Assembly: GCA_002256025.1 (NCBI GenBank)
Contig: NKIB01013629.1
Location: 1 to 54,506, forward strand
DNA from: Asterionella formosa
Lineage: Eukaryota
Length of the DNA stretch: 54,506 nt
Reading direction: 5' to 3'
Shown here: one piece after another, positions 812 to 49,561 of the stretch
Layout of the letters: each line of letters opens with the position of its first letter
Numbering within the stretch: the stretch's first letter is position 1
The notes under the pieces: generated by a model
What the model saw: the letters and a program-made list of their open reading frames with translations, nothing else
Told to the model about the DNA's origin: nothing
Database searches by the model: none
Translations under genes and position numbers: made by a program

Positions 812-1059
812 AGGGAATGGCATAGTGGTTAAGCACGTTGCCTTTGATCTAAGGTTGTGAGGTTCGATTCCCGCAATTTTTTTGAGAAGTAATTGTTGGG
901 TTCAACTCCCACAATCCTTACCATCCCGCACGGTCTGGACTGGTGTGCAAGAAATAGTGGGTTGCCCCCTAACAAGCAGCTTGTGCCGTTTTCCTAGGAG
1001 GTCGGAGTTTCCCCTTTCGCGAAAGGTGATTGGCAGGTTGCACAATGAAATACTTGCCT
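812..1059 (+). repeat. tRNA-Gln-derived Pol III cassette plus structured 3' domain, copy 1 (SINE-like or ncRNA; internally shorter)
   Basis: A box TGGCATAGTGG 818-828, CTTTGA anticodon-loop remnant, B box GGTTCGATTCC 861-871, T7 at 877-883. Colinear with 43683-43999. Confidence 0.75.
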
Positions 1060-1387
1060 TGACCGCTGTGTTTTAGAAAAACAATAGGACATTAGTGAAA
1101 ATATCAATCAACAGTAACAACGATGATGGTAGTGCTGATAATGACATCATGATTGGAGAACTTGCTTACCAACTCCTCAATTGTGTATTTGCTTCGGTCA
1201 GCACCCAGAGAGGAGGCTTTTACCAAAGCACTGGTGAATGTCAAGTAACAACAGGTCAGCAGTAGTAGCATTTAGCAAGAATGCCACTTCATGGACTCTG
1301 CATAATTGGTGTTTTTGTGATACCGGGATTACAGCATGTACTCAAAACTGGTACTCCGAGTACCCCGTACCCTGGTAGACTTGGTAC

Positions 1388-26899: not shown

Positions 26900-29733
26900 T
26901 TATTTCTTAACCCCAAAGCGTTCATTTGTGGCATCCAGCTTCTGAAGCTGGAAGAGTCCATAAGGAACACGTACACCGAAAATGAATGCGACAGCAAACA
27001 ACATCTTACTCAGAGGCGACGACGCAGACATTGATTTACCAAGCACAACAAGAACAGTGCCAGTTTGCATAAATAGCCCCGACATAACAGCATTCATAAT
27101 GTTCTTTTGAACAAGTCTACTACGTTGGAGTTGTCGCTCCACTTCGAGTGCTCGGACTCGAAGCTTGAAATCGCCTTTTTCCAGTCTTCTGATTGTGTCG
27201 TCAACACGCGCAGTTCTTCGAGGTTGGGTGACCGCCTGATTGATATCAATCGGTCGCAAGCCAAACCGCTTTCCAATGCGGAGCAGCGTTGTCTTGAATG
27301 CATTTCCGTCCTTCAAGTCGAGTAACTCTTTCAAATAAGGAAGCAGAATTCTTGTCATGTCATATCTTGGATTCAACGTCTTTCCGATACCATCAAGCGA
27401 AAAGAATGCGCGAAACACGAACGTCCAGGTGGGAGGGAAAATGAATGGCGTATCAGCATTAAGCGAAAGGAACTCCTCGCCCAACTCCTTCCTCCTTTGC
27501 CTGTTGATGCGCTTCCTTTCCTCTTCACTCAATGTGTTCTCCCACTTAGCATCTCGTTTCAACGTTGCCTGAAAACGGTCGATAAAGTCTTGCCCGACTC
27601 GTTCCACGGCTACTCGGTCCAGATCTGGCCCACTTCGAAGCATCCCCATACTTGCTAGAGCGTTGCAAGCAGCCTTAACATCGTTATCGTAGTAAACTGC
27701 AAAAGCGAAATCCACAAGTCCCTTTCGCTCGACAGGTCCAAACGAATCCATCATTCCAAAGTCATAGTATATCAAGCGGGCTTCGCCCTTGGGGCCAACC
27801 TCTACTGCCACATTTCCTGGATGTGGGTCACTGTGGAAGAAACCGTGTCGAAACAACTGTTCTAAGAAGGCCTCAGCGGACTTGATGGAAATATCAACTG
27901 GATCTAGTCCCGCAGCAATTATTTTTTCTTTGTCAGTTATTTTGATACCAGGGCAATACTCCATTGCCATCACTTTGTCGGTTGTATATTCTGGGTATGT
28001 CTGCGGGACCTTAATGTGTCGAAACTTGGGAACGTCAAAGTTCTTGCTGAACGAAAGTGTGAGGAACGGTATTTTAGGCTTTGGCATCCTGTACAAACTT
28101 GCTTTTGCTATCTTGCTTACCGGAACATATCACAATTTCTCATCTCATGCATGTAGTCGATCTCTTCATAGAGAAGTCGTTTATTCTCTTCGTAAACGGA
28201 AACCCAGTCCCGCTTGGTATTTTTATCTAGCAGGCCACCCTCCGTAGTTAAATCAACAGCATCTGCGAAGACAGCAAGCTGACGGAGTTGACCTAAGTCA
28301 ACAGCAAACAGTTCACGCAAGTACTGACGCTGGACTTTAATTGCAAACCGTTTATCCCCCTTTGTGGCCACGTGTACTTGTCCAAGCGATGCTGCAGCAA
28401 GCGAAGTGGTGTTGAAGGTGTCGAATAATTCACTGATTGGCTTGCCTAGCTCACGTTCGATAATCTCAACAGCGAGACTTCCTGAAAATGGAGGAACATT
28501 GTCTTGAAGAAGCTTTAGCTCCTGAATATATTCAATGGGGACGATATCGAGTCTGGTGGAAAAAAGTTGCCCAACCTTAATAAAGGTGGGTCCAAGCTTA
28601 AGCAGATTCTGAGTTATCTCGGCTCCAAGCTTGCTGCGCTCTTTAGAAAGCTGCTCACTGGAGATCTTTCCCATGTTAAACTTGTTCGCCATGCTTCGCT
28701 CCTTTATATAAAATGAGCTGAAGTACGCCCAAATTTCGGCAGATCGTCTTAGAATGGCCCACTTTTTCGCGAACGGTCCTTTCGCTGCGATTTCTCCTGT
28801 TCTTTTCCATCCTGCTTGCATGGTCTCGGCGTTTTTCAGAAAGTCGTCTGTCGATCCCTTCTTTTGCTTCTTCGGCGCAGACTTGATCACAGATGCCATA
28901 CTCCTCAAGCTTGCCAAGAGAATCATGGGAGGATATCCAACCTTTCGAATCCATCGGAGACAAAGGGCAATCGAATAGTAAAGAGGTGCGACGTCAAGGT
29001 TCTTAATAATTTCCCTCGTGCGAAGCCGACGTGATGCACCTAATGTTGAGTTGGCACCAGCGAGAATGAGCTGTTCGCGAACTTCTTTGTCCGAAGAGAC
29101 ATCGCCAACTGAATTTTCCACATCAAAGATTGGAGAGTCAGAGAATGCAAAGTCTTCAAACGGTCTGACAAAACGAGCCTCAATCTCCGCCAGTTGACGT
29201 TCTAGTTCGAGCTGCTGCGCACTCTGTATTTCATTTGTTAGATCGGCCAAATAGTTTGATAGTTCCTTCGCTGCCTCCTCTGGTAATCTCACAAGTTTCT
29301 CCTCCATCATACCCGTAAGATTCCCAAGCATATCCTTGTATCCATCGGTCACGCGTTGACTGATTTCGTCCATTAGCACCACAACATCGTCCGCTGACTG
29401 CGTCACACCTTCTACTTCAGCTCCGCTAGTCACATTCTTGGCGTTATTCACAAGTATCTCTCGGAGCTCCGAAGCGCCGTTTACACGAGGTTGATAAATT
29501 CCATTACGAGCATGCTGAATGTGGTCTATTGCCTTTTCGCCTTTACTGGCGTGCGATGTCTTTGGTTCTTTTGTTGCCCAACATTTCGTTTTGGCTCTCA
29601 AGGAAGATATTGATAGCCCGGCACTAGATATTCGCAACGATACAGACGGAGATAGCAAACCAGAGACCGCGGAATTTCGCGAAAGGAACAGGACAGTCAG
29701 CACCACAAAGGCCGACTTGGGCATTATATGCAT
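26900..29733 (-). CDS. ABC1K: ABC1/UbiB atypical kinase, plastid-targeted (ABC1K7/8-like); exons 29733-28121 and 28046-26900
   Basis: [43 protein letters not shown] and [11 protein letters not shown] motifs. Intron 28047-28120. Signal peptide ending VSG/L followed by a Ser-rich transit-like segment. Start could be 29733 or 29724. Confidence 0.93.
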
Positions 29734-32624
29734 GTTCTGACGAACTCTCACAAACTGAAGGGGAGTATCGAAGCCGTCTTTCTGATTTTGATCAAGTGTG
29801 CGCTTCTCCGACCTCTTGCTTCAATTCCCAATATTGGGTATTCGATTGATCAAATCGTCAAGATTTGCTCTCTCACTTTGAACCAACGCGGAAATTGATG
29901 TTCTAACTAAATGGACAGTGACAATTGGACTCCCGAAAAAGGTGTCCCTGATGCTGAAGCTCCCGGATTTGACAGATGGAAAAAACATCAGCACCTCTCC
30001 AAGGGAAGAACAGCCAGTACGTTTCACCAACACGCGGCACCAGCGCACCAGCACACCAGGCGGCAGCAGAACAAGCCTGTTTCTGAGTGGATGTACCGCT
30101 ACCAGGTACCGTATGCCGGTACAACAGTATCTTCCCAAATTTCCGGGTTGCCGTTGCAACATTGTGTCGTATTTACCAGCAAGTTGTGTTCATTTTGCTG
30201 AAATGGACAACATGACGCAGGACAGGCGCTCAAAGCGACTAAATACAAACCTCATCAACTCTCTCGTTGAGTCGACAGTATCATGACTTGTTTGTGACGT
30301 TGATAAATATTTCGTCTAAACACGGAAACGTCAAAATAAATCAAATGGCTGAAAAAAGAAAATGACAATGACTGGGGCAATAGAGGGGTGGCCCGAAGCA
30401 AAGGTAAGCGAGCCTTGCTTACCAACATTGCTTTATTCTCTCCAAACTCAAAATCGTTCTCCTTTTCCAGTCGAAGTGATGAAAACAACCAATAATGAAC
30501 GGTTCTATATCAATTAGGATTTGAAATATATGCATGCTAGCATCATCATAGGTAACAACTAGTGGCTACCAGGTTACCTGGTACCAGGTCGATATAATTA
30601 TTAGAGTACCAGGTACCTGGTACCACCATATTCATGCTGGTGGCTGGACTCATGCTGCAAAGGGGCACCTGGTACCAGGTACCCAAAGAAGCACTTGTAA
30701 GCGCTTGTATATACCGCTAATTATTTAACTTAGATTATTCGATTCTTTTCTTTATAAGATTTATTTACTAGAATAGCACTGTGGAGTAACTGTTTAGTCA
30801 TCATGAGCGGCTGGAGTATGCATGGTGCATCATATGGTTTCAGCCAGACCATGACAAAATCAACAAATATCTCCGTGAAAAATGAGAGCGACGCTTTCCT
30901 ATTTGGTATAATATTGTAAGCACAATATAGAAAATACAGTTGTAAAAGAACAGTTGTAATGACTCTAATATTGACAACGAAAATTGAAAAAGCCAATAGC
31001 GCATCTTTTTAATGAAATTTTTATAGATTCACCATTCACAACAATGATGCTATCAGCAGATTTGACACTTTCACAGTAGCTGTAAAACAACTCAGACGAC
31101 TAAACAATAAAATGATTAATTAAAGCAAAAGATGTCAAACAAGTTATGTATTAGCTTAGATATGATTGCATGTATCAATGCCGCAAAAAAGGATGCATTG
31201 TGATAAGGGAATGATGGAAGTGTGATAGCGATGAGATTTCAAAATTGTTTGTTTGCCAGTAAAAGTACCAGCAGGCCTATAGTGGTGCAATGTGGCTGGT
31301 GCAGCAATGACATGACATCATTTAGGGGTCATTTTAAATATTTTCGTTGCACATGAGCACCTGTTCAATATTCATCTCCAAGGTTGCATCATGCATATCA
31401 ACATGCAAAAATGAAAGAAAAGCTCACCAAGTGTGATGGGTGAAATCGGTTGCTGGTTGTTGCTATCCATATCATGTAATTGCTTTTTATTCTACTAACC
31501 AATGAACTCAACAATCAACCTTTGCTGCACCGCAGCCTTTGGAGAATTTTTATTGGAGAAACTAGGTATGGAGACTGTGGATTCCAAAAAGTGATTAATT
31601 CTGCATTGAAAAAACCTAAATGAAGTCTTTGATGCTGCTCCTAAATTCTCTATTCCCAGCCAATTTTCTTTGGATGGCTTCTACATTTTGTCAGACCTTC
31701 TGCTGTATTCCACATTGCCATAATCGCAGCTGTTTATACCTGTTTATACAGTTATGTGTGTCGACAAGGCAATAGAACTGATGCTGTGAATTAATGAGGC
31801 ACAAATCCACCAGAAGGTACTCTAAGAGGCAAAGAGCAGCATGCAAAACTGTGCAGCATAGCTCTCTATAAATCTTGGCCCAACTTTTCTGTGGGGTTGC
31901 AACCTTGGCTGGCTGCATTGCCAAGAGTGTCCATGAATCTTCACCTTAAAAGGAATGGTGAGCACATCGAAAATAACCATCTCTCTCATTGGTGGATTCA
32001 CTTTGAACCTTCCTTGAAAAACCTGAAATGAGCTCTTATGCAACCATTTGAGCTCATTTCAAGCTGCCCATGCGCCTGTGTGGTGTCAAGAGCATTCATG
32101 TCAAGGCAACCATGGCTGGGTTGGCATACATTCATCCCATGGCGAGAAATTGATGAGTGGCTGCTTGGATGGGTTTTAGGTATATAAATATATTCAGTTT
32201 GTATATACCTATATGTGCATTCAATTATGTGGGTCAGTCTACATTTTTCTGGAAAATACCAGCACATGCTGTGTAGCGTCTACGGAAAACCAGTCTTTGG
32301 CTGAACTAGCTGTAGGAGTTGGTACATGGTACTAGGGGTACCCGGTTCTTTGCGTTTAGCGATGACAAAAATAAGCAACAAATCCTCTGGTGCCTGAACC
32401 ATCAACGGAGGATGGTGATGACCTCATGCTCTCCTGTTGCGTAAGTTCAACGGAGTAGCAATACCGATATGCATGTATCGTTGTTAACTACGCAACATAA
32501 TGCCTGCACATGGATGGTATCTGGTACCAGGGTACCAGGTACTCTATGTTATATCTCCCGGTAAATGCTTTCAATCAAACAAAATTCGTGTTGGCAAAAC
32601 AGGAATGCTTTTGTTGGATGATTA

Positions 32625-35600
32625 ATGCCTACTATGTTTTCTTGGTTCTCGACTAAGGCACCCCCAGTAGATATAGAAAAGCGAGACGACGATGTAAACC
32701 AAAAAGAATCCGAGATCGGCTGTGGAAATGACGGACTTACCACTGAAGGAAATGCCATTCCGACGAGTTACAGCAACGCGGAATCTGCCACCGATGTTCA
32801 AGAAAGCAGCTCTGATAATATCATGCATGGATCAGTGGAGACAAATGACGAGCAAGAAATTCCACCACCGAAGAAGGTCGGTGAATATCTGCCTCAAGGG
32901 CGAATGCAAATCGACAACAGCATCGTTGCGACGCACAAGGGCCAAGATGCAACTCAGAGCGTCGATGGGACGATGACGAAGGACTCATCCAAGTCAACGG
33001 AAGCAGTAAATTCAAAAAACACGTTTTCTTCGGAAGGCAACTGTGACAACACACCACCATTGGGCATGAAATTAGAATCCCTTCATGCCGTTCAGAATCG
33101 CAATTCTCCTTCAAATATCGGATATGTGGACAAAGAAGACTTCCTCGTAAGTCTTGATCTAATGCTCTCCGACAGCTTGGTTTCATCGCAAAAGGAACCC
33201 GTGATATCTGATACTCATTTACAAATTGCTGCTAGTGAAGCAAAAACTCCATCAAATCTTGCGAAGGAAAGCCTTGCACATATTCTGGTATCTGGGCCTA
33301 TAGAAGAGCGCGACTGTTCTTATCCTCCTGGGGTTGTGAGAAGTTATCAGAATGAAAATCAAAAAATATCGACAAGTAATGACGATCACGGCTTCAGAAA
33401 TGAAACTCTTAGTACTGAAAATGCAACAACAACGGAAGAGATCTCGAATCGCTCAGATTTGCATTCCATTGACCGACAGAATCAAGAGAAGGCGCAAAGA
33501 ACGGAGCATCGAACATACGATTTTTCATCGATGAGAAGGTTATCGAAGCAAGACGAAACATCAGTCGAATCACCTAGTGAATCCGAGAAGCCGAGCCTGA
33601 GTATTGGCCCCGTTTCGCCGTTAACAAGCAAGAAGACCACCAAGCTTTCGAACGAACGGCTAAGTGAAGTTACCAGTTGGACTGTGGACAAAGAGTCTTC
33701 CTTATTTCTGGATAATGAACAGCATGATTTAGACTTTGAATCATTGGAATCGAAAAGGGAGTCAATGGCAGCTGTGCATCCGAACGATGAATCCATTCAA
33801 TCCCTTGATTGGGATAATCAAGCACATTTGAAAAGCCCTGATGGTGAACATGAAAAGTCAGGCAACACGAGAATACCCGAAATCTCGAGCAATAACGGCA
33901 CACTATGGTCTTTCATAGGTGTCAAAATGGTGAAGGGTGGCGAGGATAGTAAACCAAATACGATAAGTCATGCAGACAGTGAAACTGTCGTGACAAACAA
34001 TAGAAGCTCGGACAATTTTGACGTCAACGACGTAAGCGCCACCATGCCAGGTAAATCACCTACATGTATGGTCCACAGTGCCCTGGCTGTTGAACATCCT
34101 CACGTCACAAGTAGGAAGTTCGAACGAGTGGACGAATCAGGAATGCTTGGAATTGGCGAAGATGGAGAAGTCATCGGCCCTGACAAAGATGGCGACTCTT
34201 CATCGATTGCCTATGACTTTCTTGTTGACGATAGAATCCTTGCAAAAACCCTTTTCATCTACGAATCAATGACAGAAGAAGACGGAATACTGCTAGAATC
34301 CTTTAGGCGTGTTGAAAATGGCCCTGTTGAAAGTAACAAGACAACGTGTCAAGTTGTAATGGAAAATTCCTCTATTACACAACTGAAGAAAATTCGATCA
34401 TCGCCTGGCCGCGAAACGTCCCACGAAAGCCAGGCCTTATTTGACATCCTAGATCGGGATTTTGCCACCGTCAGTGCCAGAGTAACGGTGTCGATTGGAG
34501 GCCACGGTGATATGAGGAGAGCAATGACCGCTGAGGATGTGAAACTTTGTTTTGTTGCCTTCGTCAACTGTTTTACTCCTCCAAGCAAGAGCCATTTTGC
34601 TCAGGAGTACAACTATGATGTCGACAGTGGACATGATTCAACTGCTCAGGACGATTATGGATCATCATTTAGAAGCCACGAGTCTGAGAGCTCACGGAAC
34701 GAACATACAAGTCCAGACCAGTTTTCCCGTCCTTTTGTTCCTGCTCATGTTGTCAACGCCCTGTGGAAGGATGTCATCAAGTGTAGATTCCTTGACGACA
34801 ATAATATCAACAAAGGATTTGCGAAGAAGATTGAATCTGCGCCTGATGAGGCATTTTCGTCGGCTTTGTCCTTCCTCCGAGACACATTAGTCCTTCTTGG
34901 TGTACTAGATGTGAGGAAAGTTGCTGTTAGCGCAAGACATGCCAGCAATGAGGCATTGATACGCAGCACAAGTGATGTGTTTCATTTTTCAACGACAGGA
35001 GTTGAAAGGCGAGAAGATCTAGAGGAAGTCATCTCTGTTCATCAAGACATTCATCAAGAGTACGGTGAATACATGATAAGTATGGGACACCCCGACGCAC
35101 TTCACCAACTTGTCGCAAAATACGAAAAGCGATGGAATTCTGTGATTTCCGATGCCTGTATTCCAAATTCAGGCAACCGCAACGAAGCCAGCTATGCAGT
35201 ACAGATATTACCTTGGACTACAATACGAGCCAATCGTTTTCAGGAGGGTGCTGCACTGCTCGCGGACAAAAAATTCATTCATGGTCGTTTGCAGGCGCTT
35301 GGGATTCTCGAAGGCACCACCGCACAAGTTACTGACGCTGAAGAGTTAATAATGAAATTTTTCGAGAACAAGAAGGATCTCCTTGCCTTTGTCGTTTTCA
35401 ATCCTGATAATTGCATGGTTGATGCATACGAAAAGACTAAAAAAGCTATTCTGCGCCAAGTATCAGAAGCGGAGGAAATGGGACAAGGTAGCTACGACAT
35501 GCAAGGAGACACAGTTCATGCAAGGCAGCTCAGGAAACTTAGAAGGGAGGCCGGAATGGCTCTTCATCTAATGGGTGTATCAATTGGAAATCAGGGCTTT

Positions 35601-38600
35601 GTCGCCGACGAACTGACATATTGCTTGGAGGCTCTCAATTTGAAGCGGGCATCTGTTGTTTTAGGCGACAATTCATCGGTCACGGTCTCTGATACTCTGC
35701 ATTGCATTGGATATTCCCTTGACAATTCTGGAAAGTACCTTCAAGCTATGGAGTACTACGACGAGGCATTAGCCATTCGAAAGAGTATGCTCGGTGATGA
35801 TGATTTACGAGTTGCGGAAACACTTCACAATAAGGGCGCTATATTGTGCGAAAACGGTGCCTCTGGCGACGCGTTATCTTGCCTGGAAGAGGCGCTTAGA
35901 ATACGTACGCTCCATTATGGTGCAAATCATGAAAGTTGTGCAGACACTCAGCAATGGATAGGAAATGTGATGCGAGAATGTGGCGATTTCGATCAGGCCT
36001 TGCTCTTCTTCAAAAATGCTTTACAAGTGAAGAAGTTCACCCTCGGAGCCGACCATGAGGAGGTCGCTAATACTCTCCAAAACATGTCCGTTGTACTTAA
36101 TGACATGGAGAAATACATTGTTTCTCTTGACTGCTACGAGGAGGCACTCAGAATATATACATTGCAGTTTGGAAATGATGATGAAAGAGTAGCAGACACT
36201 CTTCATCGCATGGCCATCGATTATGCCATTACAGAACAGAATGAACTAGCGTTGGTTCACTTTGAGAAAGCCATTCAAATTCGGGAAAAGCTACTGATCA
36301 ACGACAAGTGGCCATCCGGAAAGGACAAAGTTGTCCAGTCACTGATCTTTAAACCGGAAATAGATGCAGACATAGTTGAAACTCGAATCGGTAGCCTCAT
36401 TGACTGTTACGAGGAATGCATTATTTTGGCGAAGGTCCTTCAAGAGAGTGATGTTAAATCAATCGGCAAGATTCAACATAGACTCGGTGATTTATATTGC
36501 GACATGTATGATTGGGACAATGCCGTGGAACAATTTCAAGGTGCATTGCGTGTCCAAAGGTCCTTGGCCGATTCTGGTGCCTTGGACGAAGTTGAAGTAT
36601 GTGAAATTTTGCATAAGAAAGGTGTTGTCCACCTATACATGAACGAGCATCAAAAAGCGAAATCTTGCTTTGAGAGTGTTATTTACCGGCTGAGAAGTTC
36701 GAAAGAGAACGACGTTGCTTCAGAAGCCACATCATTGTACTGCCTTGGAGTAGCTTTCAACCATCTCCATGCGCATAAGCTCTCTTTAGTTTCACTAACA
36801 GAAGCCCTTCGCATATGGACTGAAATATATGGTGAGTATCATGTTTTTTGTGGTTATGCCTTATATTGGATCGGGCGCCAAGAGACGCAGCTCCTTCAGT
36901 TCGAAAAAGCGCTTACTTGGTATAGAGCTGCGCTGAAGACTTTCAAATCGAATAAGGACGACGTCGACTACGCTGCTGTAGCCAAAACACTAGAACTTCT
37001 GGGTGGAATTCACGAGCAAATGGCTGACCTTGATGCTGCACTCAAGTGTTACGGTGAAGGTGTCCGCCTGGTACGCTGGAAGTTTGGTGATAAACACTCG
37101 TTCGCAATCGATATGCTGTGTCGCTCTGGGCTTATTAGTGAGAAACAAGGCTGCACAGTTGAAGCCATAGAGTACTTCGAAGACGCTATTTCAGTTATGA
37201 AGGCATGCAATCGCGAAGGCGATACCCAGCTTTGTATGGCAATGGAAAAGCTTGGTTTGCTTCAAGAGACCGAAGGAAGTATTGATAGTTCCAAGAATAC
37301 GCTTTCGGATGCATATAGACTTTGGGAAGCTGCTGTCGGCCACGACGACTTGAGAACCGCCGTAGCTGTATGGAAACTTGGCCGTGTACTGGACAAGCAA
37401 GGATCAAAGGAAGCGGCCATGCAGTGCTATCGAGAGTGCCTACGAGTACAGAAACTCAACTTGCCATCCGGTGATCATAATATCGCCGACACTTTGAGTA
37501 GCATGGGTACTAATCTATCTGAGAGTGAGGAATACGAGGAGGCAATCAAGTGTTTTCAACAAGCTTTAAGTATTCAGCGCAATGCATACGGCGACAACAG
37601 CTTGATAGTTGCATCGACGCTGCACAGTCTCGCGAAGGGATATCAGGAAGTAGGGTCATTTGATAAGTCGGTGGTCTGTTTCAAGGAAGCCCTACGTATC
37701 AGTAAGAGTGCTGGGGAAGAGAATATCAAGGAAATATCCGAAATTTCATTCGGCATTGCGTTATCACACGAAGCGAATAACAACTATCAAGCAGCTATTA
37801 CACATTTCACTGAAGCACTAAGAACTTGGAAGGCTACATCTGCTGATGATTCCCGGATTCCGATTGCGCTACAAAAGCTCGGAAACGTTTACAGTAAGGC
37901 TGGCGACAATTCTCAGGCAATTGTAAGCTACACGAATGCCTTAGACATACTTGGGGAGCAAGACGGAACTGACAAGAAGCTTATGGCTATGGTTCTCTCG
38001 GGTCTAGCAAGAAGTTATTTTTTGACGGGGTCACACGACTGTGCAATTGAAATGTATCAACGCCACATTGACTTACTGCAATCAGATTCTGAAAACCGAG
38101 AGAGTGTAGCGGAGTCATTGTGCGCGATGGGTTCCATTTACGCTCGCCTTGGTAATCATGACGATGCAACTCTGCATTTTAAAGACTGCTTGTTGGTCCG
38201 AACGAAGTGTTTTGGAAGGGACGACGAACGCGTTGGGAAAGTCCTTATGAACATGGGTAATGTATATGACAAAAGTGAGGACCTGAATGCAGCACGAGAT
38301 TGTTACCTGGAAGCTTTGCGAATCAATAAAATGAATGCGAACGATTGGGAGACAGTGGTTTGCCTCAAAGAATTGGGGAAGATTTTGACGAGAGAGAAAG
38401 ATCAGAACGGTGCCTTGGAACATAACTTGGAAGCTCTGCAGTTAACCAAAAAACTCCTGGGGCCGGGGGATCCTCAAGTTGCGGATCTACTTTATACTTG
38501 TGCGGCTACGATGTACGAACGACATGAATATTCAAGGGCACTTGAGTTCTTCGAAGATTCCCTGCGCATTCGTCGGGTAAAGTTGGGTCCTACTTGCGTC

Positions 38601-41600
38601 GAAATTGGCGAAACACTCCTTATGATTGGGCAAACGATGGCTCGTTCTGATCATTATGACGAAGCACTGGTTTTTTTAAAGGATTCTCGTTCTGTCCTTT
38701 CCGAGGCAAAGGGAAACGAGAGCCTCGATGTGGGTAACTGTAACTATTCCATTGGGGCCGCATATGTCGCCAAGAATGATTTTGAAACCGCAATTCCTTA
38801 CTTCTTAGATGCACTTCCTTTGAGACAGAAATATTTCGGGGATGATATGCAGGTGGCATCTACTTTGTTTGAACTCGCTAATGCATACAACAAAATTGGA
38901 AACTTGGTGAGTGCATTGGAATATGCAGTGATGGCTTTGCGAATTCGGAAGCTGCGATGCGGCAATCAATCGTTGGAATGTGCTGAGTCCCTGAGCCAAC
39001 TAGGGGACATACATTTGGAATTACTAAAGGATTGCGAAGCTCAGAATTGTTACAATGAAGCTCTGAAGGTTTACACATCTGTCCGAGGAAAAGGGCACGT
39101 ATCAGTTGCTGAATGCCTCGAAAAGATCGGAAACATATATCTCAAGCAAGACCAACTAAGCAGCGCGACAGACAATCTACGAAGTGCTTTGAAGGTGTTC
39201 ACAGAAAACTATGGAGAGGTCAGTTTTCCGGTTGCAAAAGTGCTTCTTACGATCGGCAGGGTCGAAGCGAAGAAAGGTGCTTCTGAAAATGCGATCGCCT
39301 GTTTCAAGCAGAGTCTGTCAATAAGCAATGAGCTATCCGAAAAATCTGCTGTCGCTGCTGCACTGTACGAAATCGGCGTTGTCCTAGAATCTTGCGGGAA
39401 GAAAGACGAAGCCATGGAATGTTACAAAGAAACGCTCAGGCTCGCTGCCCATCACGACGCGGCCCAGACAAGAGCTCAAACTTTCAACAGGATCGGAGGC
39501 ATCCTGGTGGGGCTTAACGACTTTGATGCTGCCCTCAAAGCTTTCGATACAGCGCTGTTGATATACAAGAAATTAAAAGGAGGAGAATGTGTTGAAGTTG
39601 GCCAAACAATCCATAACATTGCAGAAGTATACGATTTGCAGTCAGATTATGAGAAGGCACAGGAGTTTTTTAAAGAGGCACACTGCATTTTTGTCAACAA
39701 GCTCGGTCCTAATGATTTAATAGTTGCCCTCGCTCTCAATAGCTTAGGCATCAATCATGCTCGTCGAAAATTATTCGAGCAGGCAGTTGAACTTTGCTCT
39801 GAGGCGTTGAGAGTCAGAAAAGACAAACTTGGTACAAATCATCTCGACACTTGCGATGCTTTTTATAACATCGCTACAATACTCGACGAATGGGGAAAAG
39901 AAGAGGAAGCAATGATATATTTCACTGATGCTCTGGAGGCATATCGATTAACGTTGGGTGACAACCATTTAGAGGTAGCAAACTGTTTCAAATGCATCGG
40001 CATTTTGCATTTAAAGCACGGCGAAGTCGACCTCGCCACTCGTGCCTTTGTAGAAGCGCTTCGTATTTACCAACTCGACGAGGCGGTGAATATTGGCGTG
40101 GCAGATGTTCTTTTCAATCTCGGAAAAATTTACACTAAGCTTGAACAATACGAGAAGGCGTTGGAGACTCTCGCACAATGCCTGAAGATTCGCAAATCCG
40201 AGCACAAAGAAGAACAACTCGACATCGCGTTGACATGTTTGCATATCGGCATTGTATATGCTGCGAAGGATTTACCAAATGAAGCCAAGAAGTTCTTTGA
40301 AAGAGCTCGTTCGATCTACGATGACGAGGGAAGGAATGATACTATTGAAGGTGCTCAGGTGATGGTGAACTTGGCAAAAATCCTATCGGTTGAAGAATCT
40401 TACGACAAAGCACTACTGCTTTTTCACAAAGCCACGGAAATTTTCAGACGAGACATCGGAGAGGATACAGACGAGGTGGCAGAAGTACTGGTAAACATTG
40501 GGATTATTCACAACAAAAGAGTCGATTACGATGAAGCCCTCAAATTCTTAACATCTGGTCTTAAAATCAGGACGCAACAATTAGGTCGTGATGATATGAA
40601 AGTAGCAAATACCCTTTTCGAGATTGGTCAAGTAATGGAAGATTGGGGTGATAGTGATGAGGTAAGATTATGCAGGCAACTGAATTAATTTGCTTCACAA
40701 GAATGTATAACATTAATCTTGCTGCTTTCAGGCCATCGACACATACGCTGAGGTCATTCGAATATCCAAGCTCAACTGCGGCAACGGCAACAATTTGATG
40801 GTGGAATCGCTCAAGCGTATGGGCGCAATTTATCTTGAGAGACTACACAGCGACGCCGCCCTTCAGTCATTCTTAGAGGCAGCAGAAGTCGAGAAGCGGT
40901 TGCATGGTGAGAACGCTGTCGAGGTCGGTCGCATTCTTCTCAGTATTGCTGGAGTTCATGATGCTCGCGCCGACGAAGATAGTGCCCTCGCCGCTTATTC
41001 CGACGCATTTCGTGTGCTAAAATCAAACCTTGGTAACGATGATTTATCTGTTGCTCTTGCTTTGAACAATATTGGGATTAACCACGCCCGTCGGAAGAAC
41101 TATGCAAAATCAATCAGTCTAATCAGTGAAGCACTCAGAATTCGAAAGCTAATATTAGGAGAAGACCACCTTGATGTCGCCGACTCTTGCGTGAATATTG
41201 CACATGTGCTCGACGAATGGGGAAAGGACGAACAAGCACTGAAGTTCTATTGCGAAGCCTTGGTCCTGTACAAAGCGCATCTCGGCAATGATGATGACGA
41301 AGTTGCTAACTGTTGCCAAGAGATCGGAGGAATCTATATGAAACAGAATGATCTCAACAGAGCAATGAAGTGCTACGTCGAATCCATCCGGATCTTCCGG
41401 CAAAACAAGGGTATGGACAACCTTGACGTTGCATTGGGCCTCTTCAACCTAGGAAGAGTGTACTCGAAGGTTATGGACTATGACAAGGCTGTGGCGTGCT
41501 TTAAGGAATGTTTACGTATCCGGGAAGCTCAAATGGGGAAGTCACATCTTGATGTGTTAGCTGTCCACCGATACATCGATGCTATTGAGAGAAAAAGGCG

Positions 41601-41607
41601 TAAATGA
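32625..41607 (+). CDS. Giant TPR-repeat protein (~2970 aa; kinesin-light-chain/nephrocystin-3-type 42-aa TPRs); exons 32625-40661 and 40732-41607
   Basis: 8-kb open frame with dozens of VA.TL..IG..Y...G....A...Y.EAL.I repeats from ~35550. The 70-nt GT-AG intron 40662-40731 joins the two ORFs in frame. Disordered Ser/Glu-rich N-terminus. Confidence 0.93.
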
Positions 41608-42637: not shown

Positions 42638-43682
42638 CCGCAAAGTAGATCGAGTGATTGTTGGCAGAAGGAAGTAAAAGGGTTTCGAAATTTTGTGACG
42701 CGGAACTACTTACCGGTCGGTACAGGTACGCAAGTTGCGGGCATTTTGTTTAAACTAACATTTTAATCTGGAATAAAAATAGCTAAATCTTTAGTTTCAG
42801 CAAAATTATAGCAAACTTGCACAGGTACCTGGTACCTGGTACTCGAATCCGCGTAAAAGGAACATAATTTATGATCAGCCATGTAAAGCCATGTAATGCA
42901 ACATGTCTGTATGAACCTTTTTTTCCTTATGCATATCTTATACCGGTATGAATAGTACATACTAGAGTGCCATAGAAAAATCTAACGTGATATCATTCAG
43001 GTCCTGGACCCGCTAATGTACAATGCCGTAAATCACCTCATGCCTCTTAGTCAATTCAATGCAATTCTCAAGGCAATAAATAGGCTACATAATTCATCCA
43101 GCACCTGAGTCTCCTGATCACTTTCATGAAGTAAGAGATATGATGACTGAAGCCTGGAATGCCTTTGTTATCACATCATATCCTTTCAGTCACAGAAGTA
43201 AATACCATGCTGGCATGCATATCATGACCACTTCTGCAAGGAGGAGGTTGACAGCATGCTCTGTTCTCGCAATCTTTTTGCAGAGGCATAATATATAATC
43301 CATATTATATGAAAAAGCATAATCGCCTATTTGGTCAACAAGATTGAAAAATGATGAGCACAGGGTTTTTTGGCTGCCCAAAGGCACGCAAAATTTAGAA
43401 AAGAAGTTGTGGATGCTGACAGTTCCCACCCCCAAAACACATTTGTAGACTGGATGTGGTGTATGCTCCATGGGTGTGCCCTGATTTGTTGATCATTGGT
43501 TATATCATTTCATGGAATCAGTATTGATTCCTTCCAGTCCAGACTAATATGTACTGTGGAGTTTTTCATGTTGTGACTGATACATGACTAAATATAACGA
43601 GTTAAATTTTTAATCCTTATGTATAGCCCTTTTATTCGGGAGAAAATTTACTATCTCATGATGTATATAAAGTTGAAGTAAA

Positions 43683-43999
43683 AGGGAATGGCTTAGTGGT
43701 TTAGCACATTGTCTTTGAACTGAGGTTGTGAGGTTCGATTCCCGCAATTTTTTAGAATCAATTGTTTGGTTCAACTCCCACACTCTTAACCATGCCGTAC
43801 AGTTTTGCCTGGTGTGCAAGAAATAGTGGGTTGCCTCCCTACAAGCAGCTTGTGTCGCCCTCCGAGGCAGACGGAGTTTCCCCTAACGCTGCTGCTAAGA
43901 TGATCACCTTTTGCGAAAGGTGGTTGGGGACTCACCTATGCTAACAAAACTAGGAAAGCACAGGTCTTGTTGGCAGGTAGTACAATGACAGACTTGCCT
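43683..43999 (+). ncRNA. tRNA-Gln-derived Pol III cassette plus structured 3' domain, copy 2 (longer copy; SINE-like or unidentified ncRNA)
   Basis: A box TGGCTTAGTGG 43689-43699, CTTTGAA loop, B box 43732-43742, T6 and upstream TATATAAA. Several hairpins downstream. Homologous to 812-1059. Transcription is not demonstrated. Confidence 0.6.
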
Positions 44000-44405
44000 A
44001 GAAAGAGGGGAGTACGAATGGGCTTTAAAACATACTAACTTTTTAAAGTTGAAGGAAAAAGAAACTATGGTTTTCATAATGGGCCTCAAACAGAGACTGA
44101 AATCAGCCGAATGAGCTGGAAAGAACCTGATAATACAATATGAAACATGATGTGTATGCATTGTTAGGCTTTCAACACAGAAAGTTGCCTCACATGGTCC
44201 CTGCACCTGCCTGGAAAATAGTAATCTGCTATAACAACAGTGCATACCAACCATCGGAGTTGAAATATGAAGGTATCAATACTAATTGTCACAATGTATG
44301 ATGGAATCCTAAGCTTGGCAAAGTTTGCAACAAACAACATACATATAGCCAAAAATATAAATTACGGTCTAATCAAAAAACTTTGAGCTGTCAAGTATGA
44401 AACTT

Positions 44406-47857: not shown

Positions 47858-48762
47858 TTAGGACACCATAGTATCATAGTAAGTCATCATACCTACCGTC
47901 CAGTATAATTCTCTATTTATCTACTGGTACATGAATGCTCCATGTCAGGTGCATATCAGCTACCTGGTACCGGTACATTGGTTTTCTCAAAATCATGTGT
48001 TGATTGAGCTTGAACACTGTTGCTAACATCAAGTCCTTTCAAAATTTCAGCAAAACATTGTGAAAAGTCACAGCCACTGAAATTGGCCGTGTCACAGACA
48101 TTCTTGCCAACCAGTGACAATGTCAAATCCATGGAGACAGAGTCATTGGGATCACTGCTGCTATTAAGGGTCAAGTCATACATGGATTCCACAACAGCAC
48201 GGAATCTACTGCTACTACTGGCTGCCACATCCATGTGCTCTTGGACAATAGTTGTGCACCTGCGGATACTGTTGCTGGTGTCTGGCATAATGGGATCAAA
48301 ATCAATCCCAAAAACGGTTTCATATCCAGAAATATCAGTTTTGGCCCAACCACATTGACGATTCAGATTTGAATTAGCTTCTTCAGGGTATTTGGTTCAG
48401 TTTGGACGGCGTTTTCCCTTTTGAACTTAACTTGCAAGTACACTGTTCATTACACGTTTCACAAGTCTGTTGATGATTTCGACTGAACCCTGATCACTGG
48501 GCTTTCGGGGCCTACCAGTGACTGTCAGTATTGTTTGATTCCACCTTTTCAACATACCCACTGCTTGTTCAGCTATGAACTCAGAACCATTATCAGTGTG
48601 AAAGATGTGCGGATATCCAATCAATCCAAAGAGACGAGACTTTAATTCAAAGCAGACATACTTTGCATTTTTCTTTGGAATAGCTCTTAAATAGCATAAG
48701 CCAGTGAAGTGATCCTTCACAAACATAATCCATCGCATTACCTGACCATAAACATTGCGACG

Positions 48763-49225
48763 NNNNNNNNNNNNNNNNNNNNNNNNNNNNNNNNNNNNNN
48801 NNNNNNNNNNNNNNNNNNNNNNNNNNNNNNNNNNNNNNNNNNNNNNNNNNNNNNNNNNNNNNNNNNNNNNNNNNNNNNNNNNNNNNNNNNNNNNNNNNNN
48901 NNNNNNNNNNNNNNNNNNNNNNNNNNNNNNNNNNNNNNNNNNNNNNNNNNNNNNNNNNNNNNNNNNNNNNNNNNNNNNNNNNNNNNNNNNNNNNNNNNNN
49001 NNNNNNNNNNNNNNNNNNNNNNNNNNNNNNNNNNNNNNNNNNNNNNNNNNNNNNNNNNNNNNNNNNNNNNNNNNNNNNNNNNNNNNNNNNNNNNNNNNNN
49101 NNNNNNNNNNNNNNNNNNNNNNNNNNNNNNNNNNNNNNNNNNNNNNNNNNNNNNNNNNNNNNNNNNNNNNNNNNNNNNNNNNNNNNNNNNNNNNNNNNNN
49201 NNNNNNNNNNNNNNNNNNNNNNNNN
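48763..49225. other. Assembly gap (463 N)
   Basis: Run of N. Confidence 1.
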
Positions 49226-49561
49226 CATTGCCTTCCACATCTTTCTTTGATATCAATGCATACCTTTTTACAAGTGAATAACCAATTCGATGTTGTCCCC
49301 GTATCTCTGAATTATCCCAGTTTTTAATAATTTACACAACTTCATTGTATTTATCATCAATCATGTCACATGATCTAGTGTTTTCCTGTTCCTGTTGTGT
49401 TAATTATACGCAATTTTATTGTATTTCTCTTCAGCCAGTCATGTCACATGACCCTGCTTTTCCTGTTCCTGATGTGTTCTTTTCCTTTGTTCACTCCTGT
49501 TGTAATTCTTGCAGTCTTTTTCTTTGATCTTGATTTAGCATATTCGATTATCTTTGCAGCC

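What the first reader, a model, noticed from the sequence alone, without database searches (positions are those of the whole stretch)
43660..43999. tRNA-Gln-derived Pol III cassette followed by a conserved structured domain, present twice 43 kb apart
Seen: both copies (812-1059, 43683-43999) keep intact A and B boxes, a CTTTGA (TTG, Gln) loop and an extended T-arm hairpin, but the acceptor and anticodon stems do not pair. A T6-7 run follows, then a second T-loop/B-box-like motif GGTTCAACTCCC and an invariant block CTGGTGTGCAAGAAATAGTGGGTTGCC. Next come the palindrome ACAAGC-A-GCTTGT, a hairpin that differs in sequence but folds in both copies, ATCACCTTT..AAAGGTGGT enclosed by GAGTTTCCCC/GGGGACTC, and a terminal GGCAGGT/ACTTGCC stem with a variable loop. 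Copy 2 has TATATAAA ~20 nt upstream. Known: tRNA-derived heads define SINEs, and tRNA-like A/B boxes drive neighbouring small-RNA genes in trypanosomes. A Pol III terminator directly after the head is atypical for a SINE. Inference: an uncharacterised SINE family, or a structured RNA (possibly a ribozyme) with a tRNA-like promoter module. I could not match it to any RNA family I know.
Basis: partly seen in the sequence, partly recalled or inferred. Interest (0 to 1): 0.8.

Follow-up and report, generated by a model that had tools for sequence, protein, structure and literature searches.

The report
High-copy tRNA-derived SINE of a diatom
The two look-alike stretches are decaying copies of a short mobile element with a tRNA-like front end that is scattered in very many copies through a freshwater diatom's genome, not a pair of working RNA genes; such elements are ordinary in general but barely described in diatoms.

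Summary
Two copies (812-~1077 and 43683-44043) share a degenerate tRNA-like head with A and B boxes, a T6-7 run, a second T-loop motif, an invariant 27-nt block and hairpins. Copy 2 runs 44 nt past the stated end; copy 1 has internal deletions and a decayed 3' end.

It is a dispersed repeat family. In a DNA run holding the locus, 9099 contigs laid on the 1.5-kb stretch. Summed depth rose from about 874 on single-copy flank to 195,000-2,100,000 over the element. Flanks become unrelated exactly at 43683 and 44043. Copy 2 sits between 16-nt direct repeats (15 of 16, 0 of 500 shuffles), and some contigs join its flanks without it.

Two more copies with unrelated flanks came from metagenome contigs. 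No Rfam family reached threshold. None of 62 predicted pairs covaries, and copy 2 folds no better than shuffles.

Best reading: a tRNA-derived SINE-type retroposon. It is unusual in having a duplicated T-arm, a T7 run after the first T-arm and a T-run 3' end instead of poly(A). Transcription, the partner LINE and read-through of the T7 run are untested. The host is a diatom. SINEs in diatoms appear in print only as pipeline calls.

The parts
43683..44043 (+). Copy 2 of the element, full length (about 360 nt)
   Evidence: The 5' limit is set by blastn and by contig loose ends at 43683, 30 contigs in X1, with unrelated AT-rich flanks (agreement 0.42). The 3' limit is set by 26 contigs that diverge behind 44043 (agreement 0.41) and by L002, which shares the end ...CTAACTTTT.
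43668..43683 (.). 5' copy of the target-site duplication, TAAAGTTGAAGTAAAA
   Evidence: Matches 44044-44059 at 15 of 16 positions; 0 of 500 flank shuffles reach the score. Reported as family D1 with spacing 376.
44044..44059 (.). 3' copy of the target-site duplication, TAAAGTTGAAGGAAAA
   Evidence: X1 contigs join 43671 to 44071 or 44084 with only 21 or 37 other letters between. These look like paralogues of the flanking repeat without the element (tables 5 and 5c).
43683..43753 (+). Degenerate tRNA-like head: A box 43689-43699, CTTTGA 43713-43718, T-arm 1 with B box 43732-43742, T6 run 43748-43753
   Evidence: Rfam tRNA model scores 16.1 bits against a cut-off of 29, E 1.6. ARAGORN finds no tRNA in the window. 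The extended T-arm hairpin is present in all folds.
43764..43792 (+). Second T-arm module (B-box-like GGTTCAACTCC, 43768-43778; GGTTCGACTCC in L001 and L002), followed by CACTC(T/C)T(A/T)ACCA
   Evidence: In L001 the two T-arm regions are identical at 17 of their first 21 positions. The tRNA-Sec model aligns the 5' end of the element with the strand after this T-arm at sub-threshold scores of 17.6-19.2 bits.
43809..43853 (+). Most conserved body segment: 27-nt block 43809-43835 and palindrome ACAAGCAGCTTGT 43841-43853
   Evidence: Both the block and the palindrome are invariant in 4 of 4 copies; the five columns between them (43836-43840) are not. Of the variant places that, table 3, prints (40; 106 more are not shown), none lies between 43805 and 43835.
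43855..43998 (+). Body hairpins: 43855-43871; GAGTTTCCCC 43874-43883 with GGGGACTC 43926-43933 enclosing 43903-43924; GGCAGGT 43973-43979 with ACTTGCC 43992-43998
   Evidence: Read from the sequence. Changes among copies are one-sided or break the pair, with no compensatory change.
43999..44043 (+). 3' tail ending in CTAACTTTT, a T-run with no poly(A)
   Evidence: Shared by copy 2 and L002. The family consensus continues through it (table 7, loose end at 43988).
812..1077 (+). Copy 1, with internal deletions and a decayed 3' end: A box 818-828, B box 861-871, T7 877-883, second T-loop motif 899-909, block 940-966
   Evidence: The nhmmer alignment covers 812-1077. No target-site duplication was found: 271 of 300 shuffles do as well.

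Best explanation
Both stretches are copies of one family of short, non-coding, non-autonomous retroposons, a tRNA-derived SINE, in the nuclear genome of a freshwater diatom.

The element is about 360 nt and has these parts in order:
- a degenerate tRNA-like head carrying Pol III A and B boxes
- a T6-7 run
- a second, duplicated T-arm with its own B box
- a roughly 250-nt family-specific body with several hairpins
- a 3' end of CTAACTTTT

Proposed mechanism:
1. Source copies are transcribed. This step is inferred; the A and B boxes suggest Pol III.
2. The RNA is reverse-transcribed into AT-rich DNA by an enzyme supplied in trans, probably a LINE that recognises the 3' tail rather than a poly(A) tract. 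This step is inferred.
3. Insertion leaves a target-site duplication of about 16 nt. This is shown for copy 2.
4. Inserted copies decay neutrally, in part by CpG-to-TpG changes. This is shown for copy 2.

The similarity of the two window copies reflects common descent from the family consensus, not selection on these loci. The T7 run after the first T-arm should stop most Pol III transcripts at about 70 nt. Full-length RNA therefore needs read-through or another polymerase. This is the open point.
For: Copy number and dispersal:
- In DNA run X1, 9099 contigs laid on window:43200-44700 at 80% likeness or more.
- Summed depth is 874 in the single-copy bins 44169-44321 and 195,306-2,107,642 in the bins 43659-44015.
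- Likeness classes are 793 / 2350 / 4189 / 1767 for >=99 / 95-99 / 90-95 / <90%.

Common ends with unrelated flanks:
- Loose ends before 43683 and behind 44043 have consensus agreement of only 0.42 and 0.41 (table 7).
- The four loci in hand have unrelated flanks.

Insertion signature:
- The 16-nt direct repeat abuts both ends of copy 2: 15 of 16 identical, 0 of 500 shuffles (D1).
- X1 contigs join 43671 to 44071 or 44084 with 21 or 37 other letters between (tables 5 and 5c).

Head:
- tRNA model 16.1 bits, below the cut-off of 29.
- A and B boxes read directly in the sequence.

Not part of a larger element:
- Homology stops at the ends.
- The longest open frame wholly inside the element is 62 aa; two longer minus-strand frames (90 and 123 aa) run out into the flanks.

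Neutral decay:
- Pairwise identity among copies is 84.6-92.1%.
- 7 of 31 differences between L002 and copy 2 are CpG to TpG or CpA in copy 2, against 1 the other way.
- L002 has 15 CpG and copy 2 has 9.

No sign of selected structure:
- 0 of 62 pairs have compensatory change, and the covariation term is +1.94.
- Fold z-score is -0.06 for copy 2 and -2.23 for L002.

Precedent: internal T4-5 stretches occur in mollusc Vhc and Snail SINEs and in crocodilian SINEU, with context-dependent read-through (PMC4758252, passage read).
Against: - A T7 run 65 nt into the element, followed by G in the other copies and A in copy 2, would be a strong Pol III terminator in the eukaryotes where this has been studied. 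The published read-through cases have T4-5 followed by C.
- There is no poly(A) or simple-repeat tail.
- No partner LINE is known, and nothing else in the window shares the tail.
- A target-site duplication was found in only 1 of 3 copies that could be tested. Copy 1 fails at 271 of 300 shuffles and L002 at 55 of 300.
- Transcription from the head is not shown. In RNA runs X15 and X19 a share of 0.89 and 0.96 of what was laid runs on into unlike sequence. Their loose ends upstream of 43683 have median lengths of 244-255 nt, so those RNAs, or contaminating DNA, are longer host sequences that contain a copy.
- Only four copies were available as sequence, so the covariation test is weak.
- Repbase and Dfam could not be searched.
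- The depth figures sum all contigs of a mixed sample and are not a copy number (tool caveat).
Confidence: 0.8

Rival explanations
1. A family of working small-RNA genes: a tRNA-like Pol III promoter module followed by a structured RNA or ribozyme. On this reading the conserved block and hairpins are kept by selection on RNA function.
For: - The 27-nt block and the palindrome are invariant in 4 of 4 copies.
- Several hairpins can be drawn.
- The consensus-like copy L002 folds somewhat better than shuffles, z -2.23, with 2 of 100 shuffles as good.
- Both T-runs sit where Pol III terminators would be.
Against: - 0 of 62 pairs covary.
- Copy 2 folds like its shuffles, z -0.06, with 41 of 100 as good.
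- Copy 1 has lost two internal segments, including one strand of the enclosing helix.
- No Rfam family, ribozymes included, appears at E <= 10 apart from sub-threshold tRNA-type hits and small nucleolar RNA noise.
- There are thousands of diverged contig variants with unrelated flanks.
- One copy has a target-site duplication.
- Copy 2 shows CpG decay.
- Among the contig pieces that one search prints (32; 9868 more are not shown), the only RNA contig without a difference that overlaps copy 2 has depth 2.2. The neighbouring gene has 176.6 in the same run (table 8, records 23 and 24).
Confidence: 0.04
2. A mobile element of another class that happens to carry a tRNA-like piece. Candidates are a solo LTR or TRIM of the Helenus/TRIMp3 type, a MITE, or a non-autonomous Helitron-like element.
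For: - tRNA-like sequences inside the LTRs of non-autonomous LTR elements are documented (PMC10886601, abstract read).
- The lack of poly(A) and the internal T7 run fit poorly with a Pol III-made retroposon RNA.
- 2 of 3 testable copies show no target-site duplication.
Against: - The ends are AGGGAATGG... and ...CTAACTTTT, not TG...CA, and no terminal inverted repeat was reported.
- The duplication at copy 2 is 16 nt, not the 4-5 nt stated for Helenus.
- Sequence behind 44043 is unrelated among copies, so no common internal region follows as it would after a 5' LTR (table 7).
- The tRNA-like part sits exactly at the 5' end, as in SINEs.
Confidence: 0.1
3. A tRNA pseudogene that merely lies next to an unrelated repeat, the pair having been copied together by segmental duplication.
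For: A T-run directly after the tRNA-like part is what a real tRNA gene has. The two window copies lie in the same orientation on one contig.
Against: - The junction between head and body is the same in all four loci, and their flanks are unrelated.
- Homology begins at the first bases of the tRNA-like part in the window copies, in L001 and in 30 X1 contigs.
- Depth is raised over head and body alike (table 2).
Confidence: 0.03

Closest known systems
tRNA-derived SINEs (SINE2 type) in general
   Same: It is short, non-coding and dispersed at high copy. The 5' head is tRNA-derived with A and B boxes, followed by a family-specific body. One copy has a variable-sequence target-site duplication of about 16 nt, and some copies are truncated or deleted.
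   Different: There is a T7 run after the first T-arm, the T-arm is duplicated, and the 3' end is a short T-run rather than poly(A) or a simple repeat. No partner LINE was identified.
Mollusc Vhc and Snail SINEs and crocodilian SINEU, which have internal oligo-T stretches (PMC4758252, passage read)
   Same: These are SINEs that carry potential Pol III terminators inside the element, explained by context-dependent read-through.
   Different: Their stretches are T4-5 followed by C or CT. Here the run is T6-7, followed by G in three copies and A in copy 2, and it sits at the place of a tRNA gene's own terminator.
'Putative SINE' calls in diatom genomes: Phaeodactylum tricornutum (13 elements, 1,454 bp; PMC5859163, passages read) and Cyclotella cryptica (PMC7466962, passage read)
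   Same: SINE-class repeats reported in diatoms.
   Different: Those are pipeline classifications. The passages read give no family anatomy, and the P. tricornutum calls are tiny in number. This family is anatomically defined and very abundant. Sequence comparison was not possible, and supplements were not opened.
Helenus / TRIMp3: non-autonomous LTR retrotransposons with a tRNA-like sequence in the LTR (PMC10886601, abstract read)
   Same: A dispersed short element carrying a tRNA-like, non-functional sequence.
   Different: Helenus has two LTRs, a primer-binding site and a polypurine tract, and makes 4-5-bp duplications. Here there is a single unit, a 16-nt duplication, and nothing common follows the 3' end.
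Dimeric or T-tailed SINEs recalled from memory, no call: the Twin SINE of Culex with two tRNA-related units, and the plant Au and p-SINE1 elements with T-rich 3' ends
   Same: Two tRNA-related modules in the head, and a T-rich rather than A-rich 3' end.
   Different: Here only the T-arm is repeated, not a whole tRNA-like unit. The resemblance is recalled and was not tested.

Membership tests
SINE (non-autonomous, Pol III-type retroposon) | Short (under about 700 nt) and non-coding | tested here: met
   About 360 nt. The longest stop-to-stop frame wholly inside copy 2 is 62 aa; the 90- and 123-aa minus-strand frames listed extend into the flanks.
SINE (non-autonomous, Pol III-type retroposon) | Interspersed in many copies with unrelated flanks and common ends | tested here: met
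   9099 contigs laid, depth of 195,306 to 2.1 million against 874 on the flank, and loose ends at 43683 and 44043 with agreement 0.42 and 0.41; 4 loci with unrelated flanks.
SINE (non-autonomous, Pol III-type retroposon) | 5' head derived from a Pol III-transcribed RNA, with an internal promoter | tested here: met
   The tRNA model aligns end to end at 16.1 bits, below the gene cut-off of 29. A box is at 43689-43699 and B box at 43732-43742. Promoter activity was not tested.
SINE (non-autonomous, Pol III-type retroposon) | Target-site duplications of variable sequence | tested here: inconclusive
   Found in 1 of 3 testable copies: copy 2 has 15 of 16 identical, with 0 of 500 shuffles as good. 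Copy 1 and L002 have none.
SINE (non-autonomous, Pol III-type retroposon) | 3' tail that is A-rich, a simple repeat, or shared with a partner LINE | tested here: inconclusive
   The tail is ...CTAACTTTT with no poly(A). The window holds no other sequence with this tail. The rest of the genome could not be searched.
SINE (non-autonomous, Pol III-type retroposon) | Full-length transcription by Pol III | not testable with these tools
   Only assembled contigs of RNA runs were available. They show copies inside longer RNAs or DNA carry-over. The T7 run argues against efficient full-length Pol III transcripts.
Functional tRNA gene | Cloverleaf that scores above detection thresholds | tested here: not met
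   ARAGORN finds 0 genes in the window. Rfam tRNA scores 16.1 bits against 29. MFE folds of the head give no cloverleaf.
Known self-cleaving ribozymes and other Rfam families | Match to a curated covariance model | tested here: not met
   0 matches at gathering score in the whole window. At E <= 10 there are only sub-threshold tRNA, tRNA-Sec, snoRNA and other small-RNA noise hits (SCARNA7, SpF56, a tymovirus tRNA-like element) on copy 2, copy 1, L001 and L002.
Helenus / TRIMp3 (LTR-type) | TG...CA ends, 4-5-bp duplication, paired LTRs with a primer-binding site and polypurine tract | tested here: not met
   The ends are AGGG... and ...CTTTT. The duplication is 16 nt. Sequence after the 3' end is unrelated among copies (table 7). 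Family features were taken from the abstract of PMC10886601.

The most novel reading that the evidence does not exclude
The element is a two-part Pol III unit rather than a plain SINE.

- The tRNA-like head, closed by its own T7 terminator, would release a roughly 70-nt tRNA-like RNA from hundreds of dispersed loci.
- The duplicated T-arm and B box just downstream, with the terminal T-run, would let the roughly 290-nt body be made separately or by regulated read-through.

On this reading a diatom SINE family doubles as a dispersed small-RNA gene family, for instance a source of tRNA-like small RNAs. It would spread with a tail-specific partner that needs no poly(A).
Probability: 0.12. Interest if true: 0.65.

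Novelty: new member of a known kind. Interest (0 to 1): 0.35.

Why it matters
SINEs were long thought to be missing from most unicellular eukaryotes. In the diatom papers I read they appear only as small pipeline calls (PMC5859163; PMC7466962).

A clearly bounded, very abundant tRNA-derived family in a freshwater diatom has several uses:
- It gives a repeat-library entry that would stop these copies being miscalled as tRNA-like or structured RNA genes.
- It offers a marker system for diatom population and phylogeny work.
- It provides a test case for Pol III termination and read-through, because a T7 run lies inside a successfully amplified element.
- It is a handle for finding the unknown reverse transcriptase partner that accepts a T-ended, poly(A)-less RNA.

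For the two loci themselves the finding is ordinary. They are decaying insertions in intergenic DNA.

Tried and rejected
- **Whole-genome search.** No genome is held for this window, so no census of copies, subfamilies or a partner LINE was possible.
- **Harvesting more copies by exact pattern.**
  - Metagenome contigs gave 2 loci, both real copies.
  - Viral contigs gave 0 with two patterns.
  - Genome contigs gave 1 locus in an actinomycete MAG. A search of that genome showed it to be a bare 20-nt chance match, query 132-151 only, and I dropped it.
- **Protein-level fishing.** I searched with a 90-aa open frame of L002 and got 20 short unnamed ENA/JGI proteins and none from a named organism. 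This says little about taxonomic spread, because such frames are rarely annotated.
- **Expression.** RNA-run contigs cover the element, but almost all are diverged copies inside longer unlike sequence. Depth over a repeat of hundreds of copies could equally come from slight DNA carry-over. I draw no conclusion on transcription from them. Parts of the stretch without RNA cover are likewise no evidence. One RNA contig in each of X15 and X19 (depth 546 and 514) skips 43726-43836, which includes the T-run. It may be a deletion subfamily inside an expressed host RNA, and I could not follow it.
- **Habitat and strain from small word shares.** rows below 0.2 were not used.
- **Parent tRNA.** The CTTTGA loop suggests Gln(UUG), but the register is off by one between the D-arm and the loop, and no diatom tRNA set was at hand. 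The isotype is left open.
- **Acceptor stem through the second T-arm with an encoded ACCA end.** The pairing is 7 of 8 in L001, but the T-run pairs equally well, and copy 2 has lost it. This remains a lead only.
- **Similarity downstream of the two B boxes.** Not significant: 799 of 5000 shuffles do as well.
- **Printed sequence motifs.** A search for four motifs of the element in the paper library returned one unrelated hit.
- **Earlier notes of this scan.** Nothing on this genome or sequence. A word search returned three unrelated notes.
- **A literature search spoiled by word matching.** In 'sine' matched 'sinensis', and the results were unusable.
Full report
**What is in the sequence**

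The two stretches are real copies of one element. blastn of 43300-44400 against the window aligns 43683-43884 with 812-1015 (84.8% over 204 nt, E 3e-61). It also aligns 43970-44002 with 1030-1062 (84.8% over 33 nt). Nothing aligns upstream of 43683/812.

A profile built from four copies finds only these two places in 54.5 kb, at E 1e-130 and 6e-89. The remaining 4 of 6 hits have E >= 0.068.

These include the A and B boxes, CTTTGA, T6 (copy 2) or T7 (copy 1), the second T-loop motif, the invariant 27-nt block, the palindrome and the hairpins.

The head is tRNA-like but is not a tRNA gene. ARAGORN finds none in the window. The Rfam tRNA model aligns end to end at 16.1 bits against a cut-off of 29. 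No Rfam family reaches its gathering score anywhere in the window. With permissive filters and E <= 10, the two copies and the two outside copies give only sub-threshold tRNA or tRNA-Sec hits and snoRNA and other small-RNA noise.

**It is a dispersed, very abundant repeat**

No genome is held for the window, so I used public runs. The stretch occurs in freshwater, lake and 'algae' metagenome runs. I laid four runs on window:43200-44700 at 80% likeness.

In DNA run X1 the results were:
- 9099 contigs laid.
- Likeness classes were 793 / 2350 / 4189 / 1767 for >=99 / 95-99 / 90-95 / <90%.
- Summed depth is 874 in the bins 44169-44321. A 349-nt contig with no difference shows that this stretch is single-copy.
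- Summed depth is 195,306 to 2,107,642 in the seven bins from 43659 to 44015.

The tool warns that summed depth in a mixed sample is not a copy number. I therefore say only that there are hundreds to thousands of copy-equivalents. Two copies in 54.5 kb points the same way.

Contigs leave the reference at two sharp places. One is before 43683 (30 contigs in X1, flank consensus agreement 0.42). The other is behind 44043 (26 contigs, agreement 0.41). The flanks there are AT-rich and unrelated. The element is therefore 43683-44043, which is 44 nt longer than the finding's end.

**Insertion signature**

Copy 2 is bracketed by TAAAGTTGAAGTAAAA (43668-43683) and TAAAGTTGAAGGAAAA (44044-44059). These are identical at 15 of 16 positions, and 0 of 500 flank shuffles score as well. 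The repeat finder reports the same pair independently (D1).

In X1, single contigs join 43671 to 44071 and to 44084 with only 21 or 37 other letters between. The 21 letters resemble one copy of the duplicated target (tables 5 and 5c). Three more joints run from 43643-43646 to 44070-44071.

The DNA on both sides (43404-43607 and 44067-44168) is itself repeated, with depth up to 94,000-123,000. I read these joints as paralogues of an older repeat that lack the insertion.

Against this, copy 1 and L002 show no duplication: 271 of 300 and 55 of 300 shuffles do as well. The signature therefore rests on 1 of 3 testable copies.

**More copies**

One exact-pattern scan of metagenome contigs returned two loci, and both are true copies with unrelated flanks.
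- L001 has the full head and is cut by the contig end.
- L002 has a damaged head but the complete 3' end, ...CATACTAACTTTT, after which similarity stops.

The other scans were unproductive. Two scans of viral contigs found nothing. The single hit in prokaryote genomes is a bare 20-nt chance match. A 90-aa open frame of L002 finds 20 short unnamed proteins from ENA/JGI assemblies and none from a named organism.

**Is the 'structured domain' under selection?**

Among the four copies, pairwise identity is 84.6-92.1%. RNAalifold predicts 62 pairs, and 0 of them have a compensatory double change. The covariation term is +1.94, a penalty.

The hairpin at 43855-43871 changes by one-sided transitions and mismatches. 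Copy 1 has lost one strand of the GAGTTTCCCC/GGGGACTC helix.

As RNA, copy 2 folds no better than its shuffles (z -0.06; 41 of 100 as good). The consensus-like L002 does somewhat better (z -2.23; 2 of 100).

Copy 2 has 9 CpG where L002 has 15. Seven of the 31 differences are CpG to TpG or CpA in copy 2, against one in the other direction. This is the pattern of a decaying, probably methylated, repeat.

Four sequences make a weak covariation test. Still, nothing here asks for more than common descent.

**Anatomy of the head**

In L001 the two regions, starting 4 nt before each T-stem, are identical at 17 of their first 21 positions and at 21 of 39 overall. The sequence after the two B boxes is not significantly alike: 799 of 5000 shuffles do as well.

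The first 8 nt of the element can pair at 7 of 8 positions, G-U allowed, in two ways. One is with the T-run. The other, in L001, is with CACTCCTT directly after the second T-arm, which is followed by ACCA or ACCG. Copy 2 has lost that second option.

The tRNA-Sec model uses the second pairing, at sub-threshold scores of 17.6-19.2 bits. Whether this reflects a retro-copied tRNA 3' end is a lead, not a result.

MFE folds of the head never give a cloverleaf. They always give the extended T-arm hairpin, which uses the T-run.

**Expression**

Three metatranscriptome runs from two studies hold contigs matching the element. In X15 and X19 a share of 0.89 and 0.96 of what was laid continues into unlike sequence. 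The loose ends upstream of 43683 have median lengths of 244-255 nt. These are therefore longer RNAs, or carried-over DNA, that contain a copy. They are not transcripts starting at the head.

Among the contig pieces that one search prints (32; 9868 more are not shown), the only RNA contig without a difference that touches copy 2 has depth 2.2 (X19, 43998-44193). The neighbouring SPX-domain gene reaches 176.6 in the same run. Contigs cannot show small RNAs, starts or ends, so transcription from the head is untested.

**Host and literature**

A DUF711 ORF of the window has named relatives only in diatoms (Attheya, Cylindrotheca, Nitzschia, Epithemia, Stephanodiscus, Thalassiosira, Skeletonema, Cyclotella), at 47-59% identity. 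The nearest hits, at 68-70%, are unnamed.

In the papers I looked at, SINEs in diatoms are pipeline classes:
- A statement that SINEs were identified in the C. cryptica v2 assembly (PMC7466962, passage).

Full-text searches on diatoms or stramenopiles and SINEs listed no paper describing a diatom SINE family (listings only). A search for four motifs of the element found nothing relevant.

On the rival and precedent sides:
- tRNA-like sequences in LTRs of TRIMs (Helenus) are known, with 4-5-bp duplications (PMC10886601, abstract).
- Internal T4-5 stretches followed by C occur in mollusc Vhc and Snail SINEs and in crocodilian SINEU (PMC4758252, passage).

Repbase, Dfam and SINEBase were not available, and I opened no supplements. 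'Not yet described' is therefore provisional.

**Verdict**

The finding is a SINE-type retroposon family, and I give this a confidence of 0.8.
- Shown: abundance, dispersal, common ends, one clean target-site duplication, copies of the flanking repeat that lack the insertion, decay.
- Inferred: Pol III transcription from the A and B boxes, reverse transcription by a tail-specific partner, read-through of the T7 run.

The rivals are a working structured-RNA or ribozyme gene family (0.04), another transposon class carrying a tRNA-like piece (0.10), and a tRNA pseudogene copied together with a neighbouring repeat (0.03).

The real oddities are the T7 run inside an element that has clearly amplified, the duplicated T-arm, and the T-ended tail without poly(A).

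Noticed in passing
window 43404-43607 and 44067-44168: The DNA on both sides of copy 2 is itself repeated in run X1, with summed depth up to 94,379 and 123,189 against 874 for single copy. Contigs join the two sides without the element. 43406-43526 also matches 20187-20050 on the other strand at 69%. This looks like an older repeat family into which the SINE inserted.
   Followed up: partly
window 43726-43836 (relative to copy 2): One RNA contig in each of X15 and X19, at depth 546 and 514, joins 43725 to 43837. This is a variant lacking T-arm 1, the T-run, T-arm 2 and the 27-nt block, at a depth comparable to the neighbouring gene (table 5). It could be a deletion subfamily sitting in an expressed host RNA.
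   Followed up: no
window 32622-41607: A 2688-aa open frame packed with TPR_12/TPR_10 repeats (23 stretches; nephrocystin-3-like TPR) is followed by a further 296-aa TPR frame. This is an unusually large TPR protein for a compact genome.
   Followed up: no
window 48427-49331: An AT-rich stretch (GC 0.32) has overlapping open frames on both strands and a weak integrase-core (rve) match at 29.1 bits, below the cut-off of 32.6. It is probably a decayed LTR retrotransposon remnant.
   Followed up: no
window 26900-29820: Two adjacent minus-strand frames each carry half of an ABC1 atypical kinase domain, profile positions 2-121 and 125-239. This is most simply one gene split by a short intron or a frame change.
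   Followed up: no
L001 1-27: The contig ends in what I recall as a sequencing-adaptor-like string, right where the SINE copy breaks off. The copy is therefore cut by assembly, not by biology.
   Followed up: no
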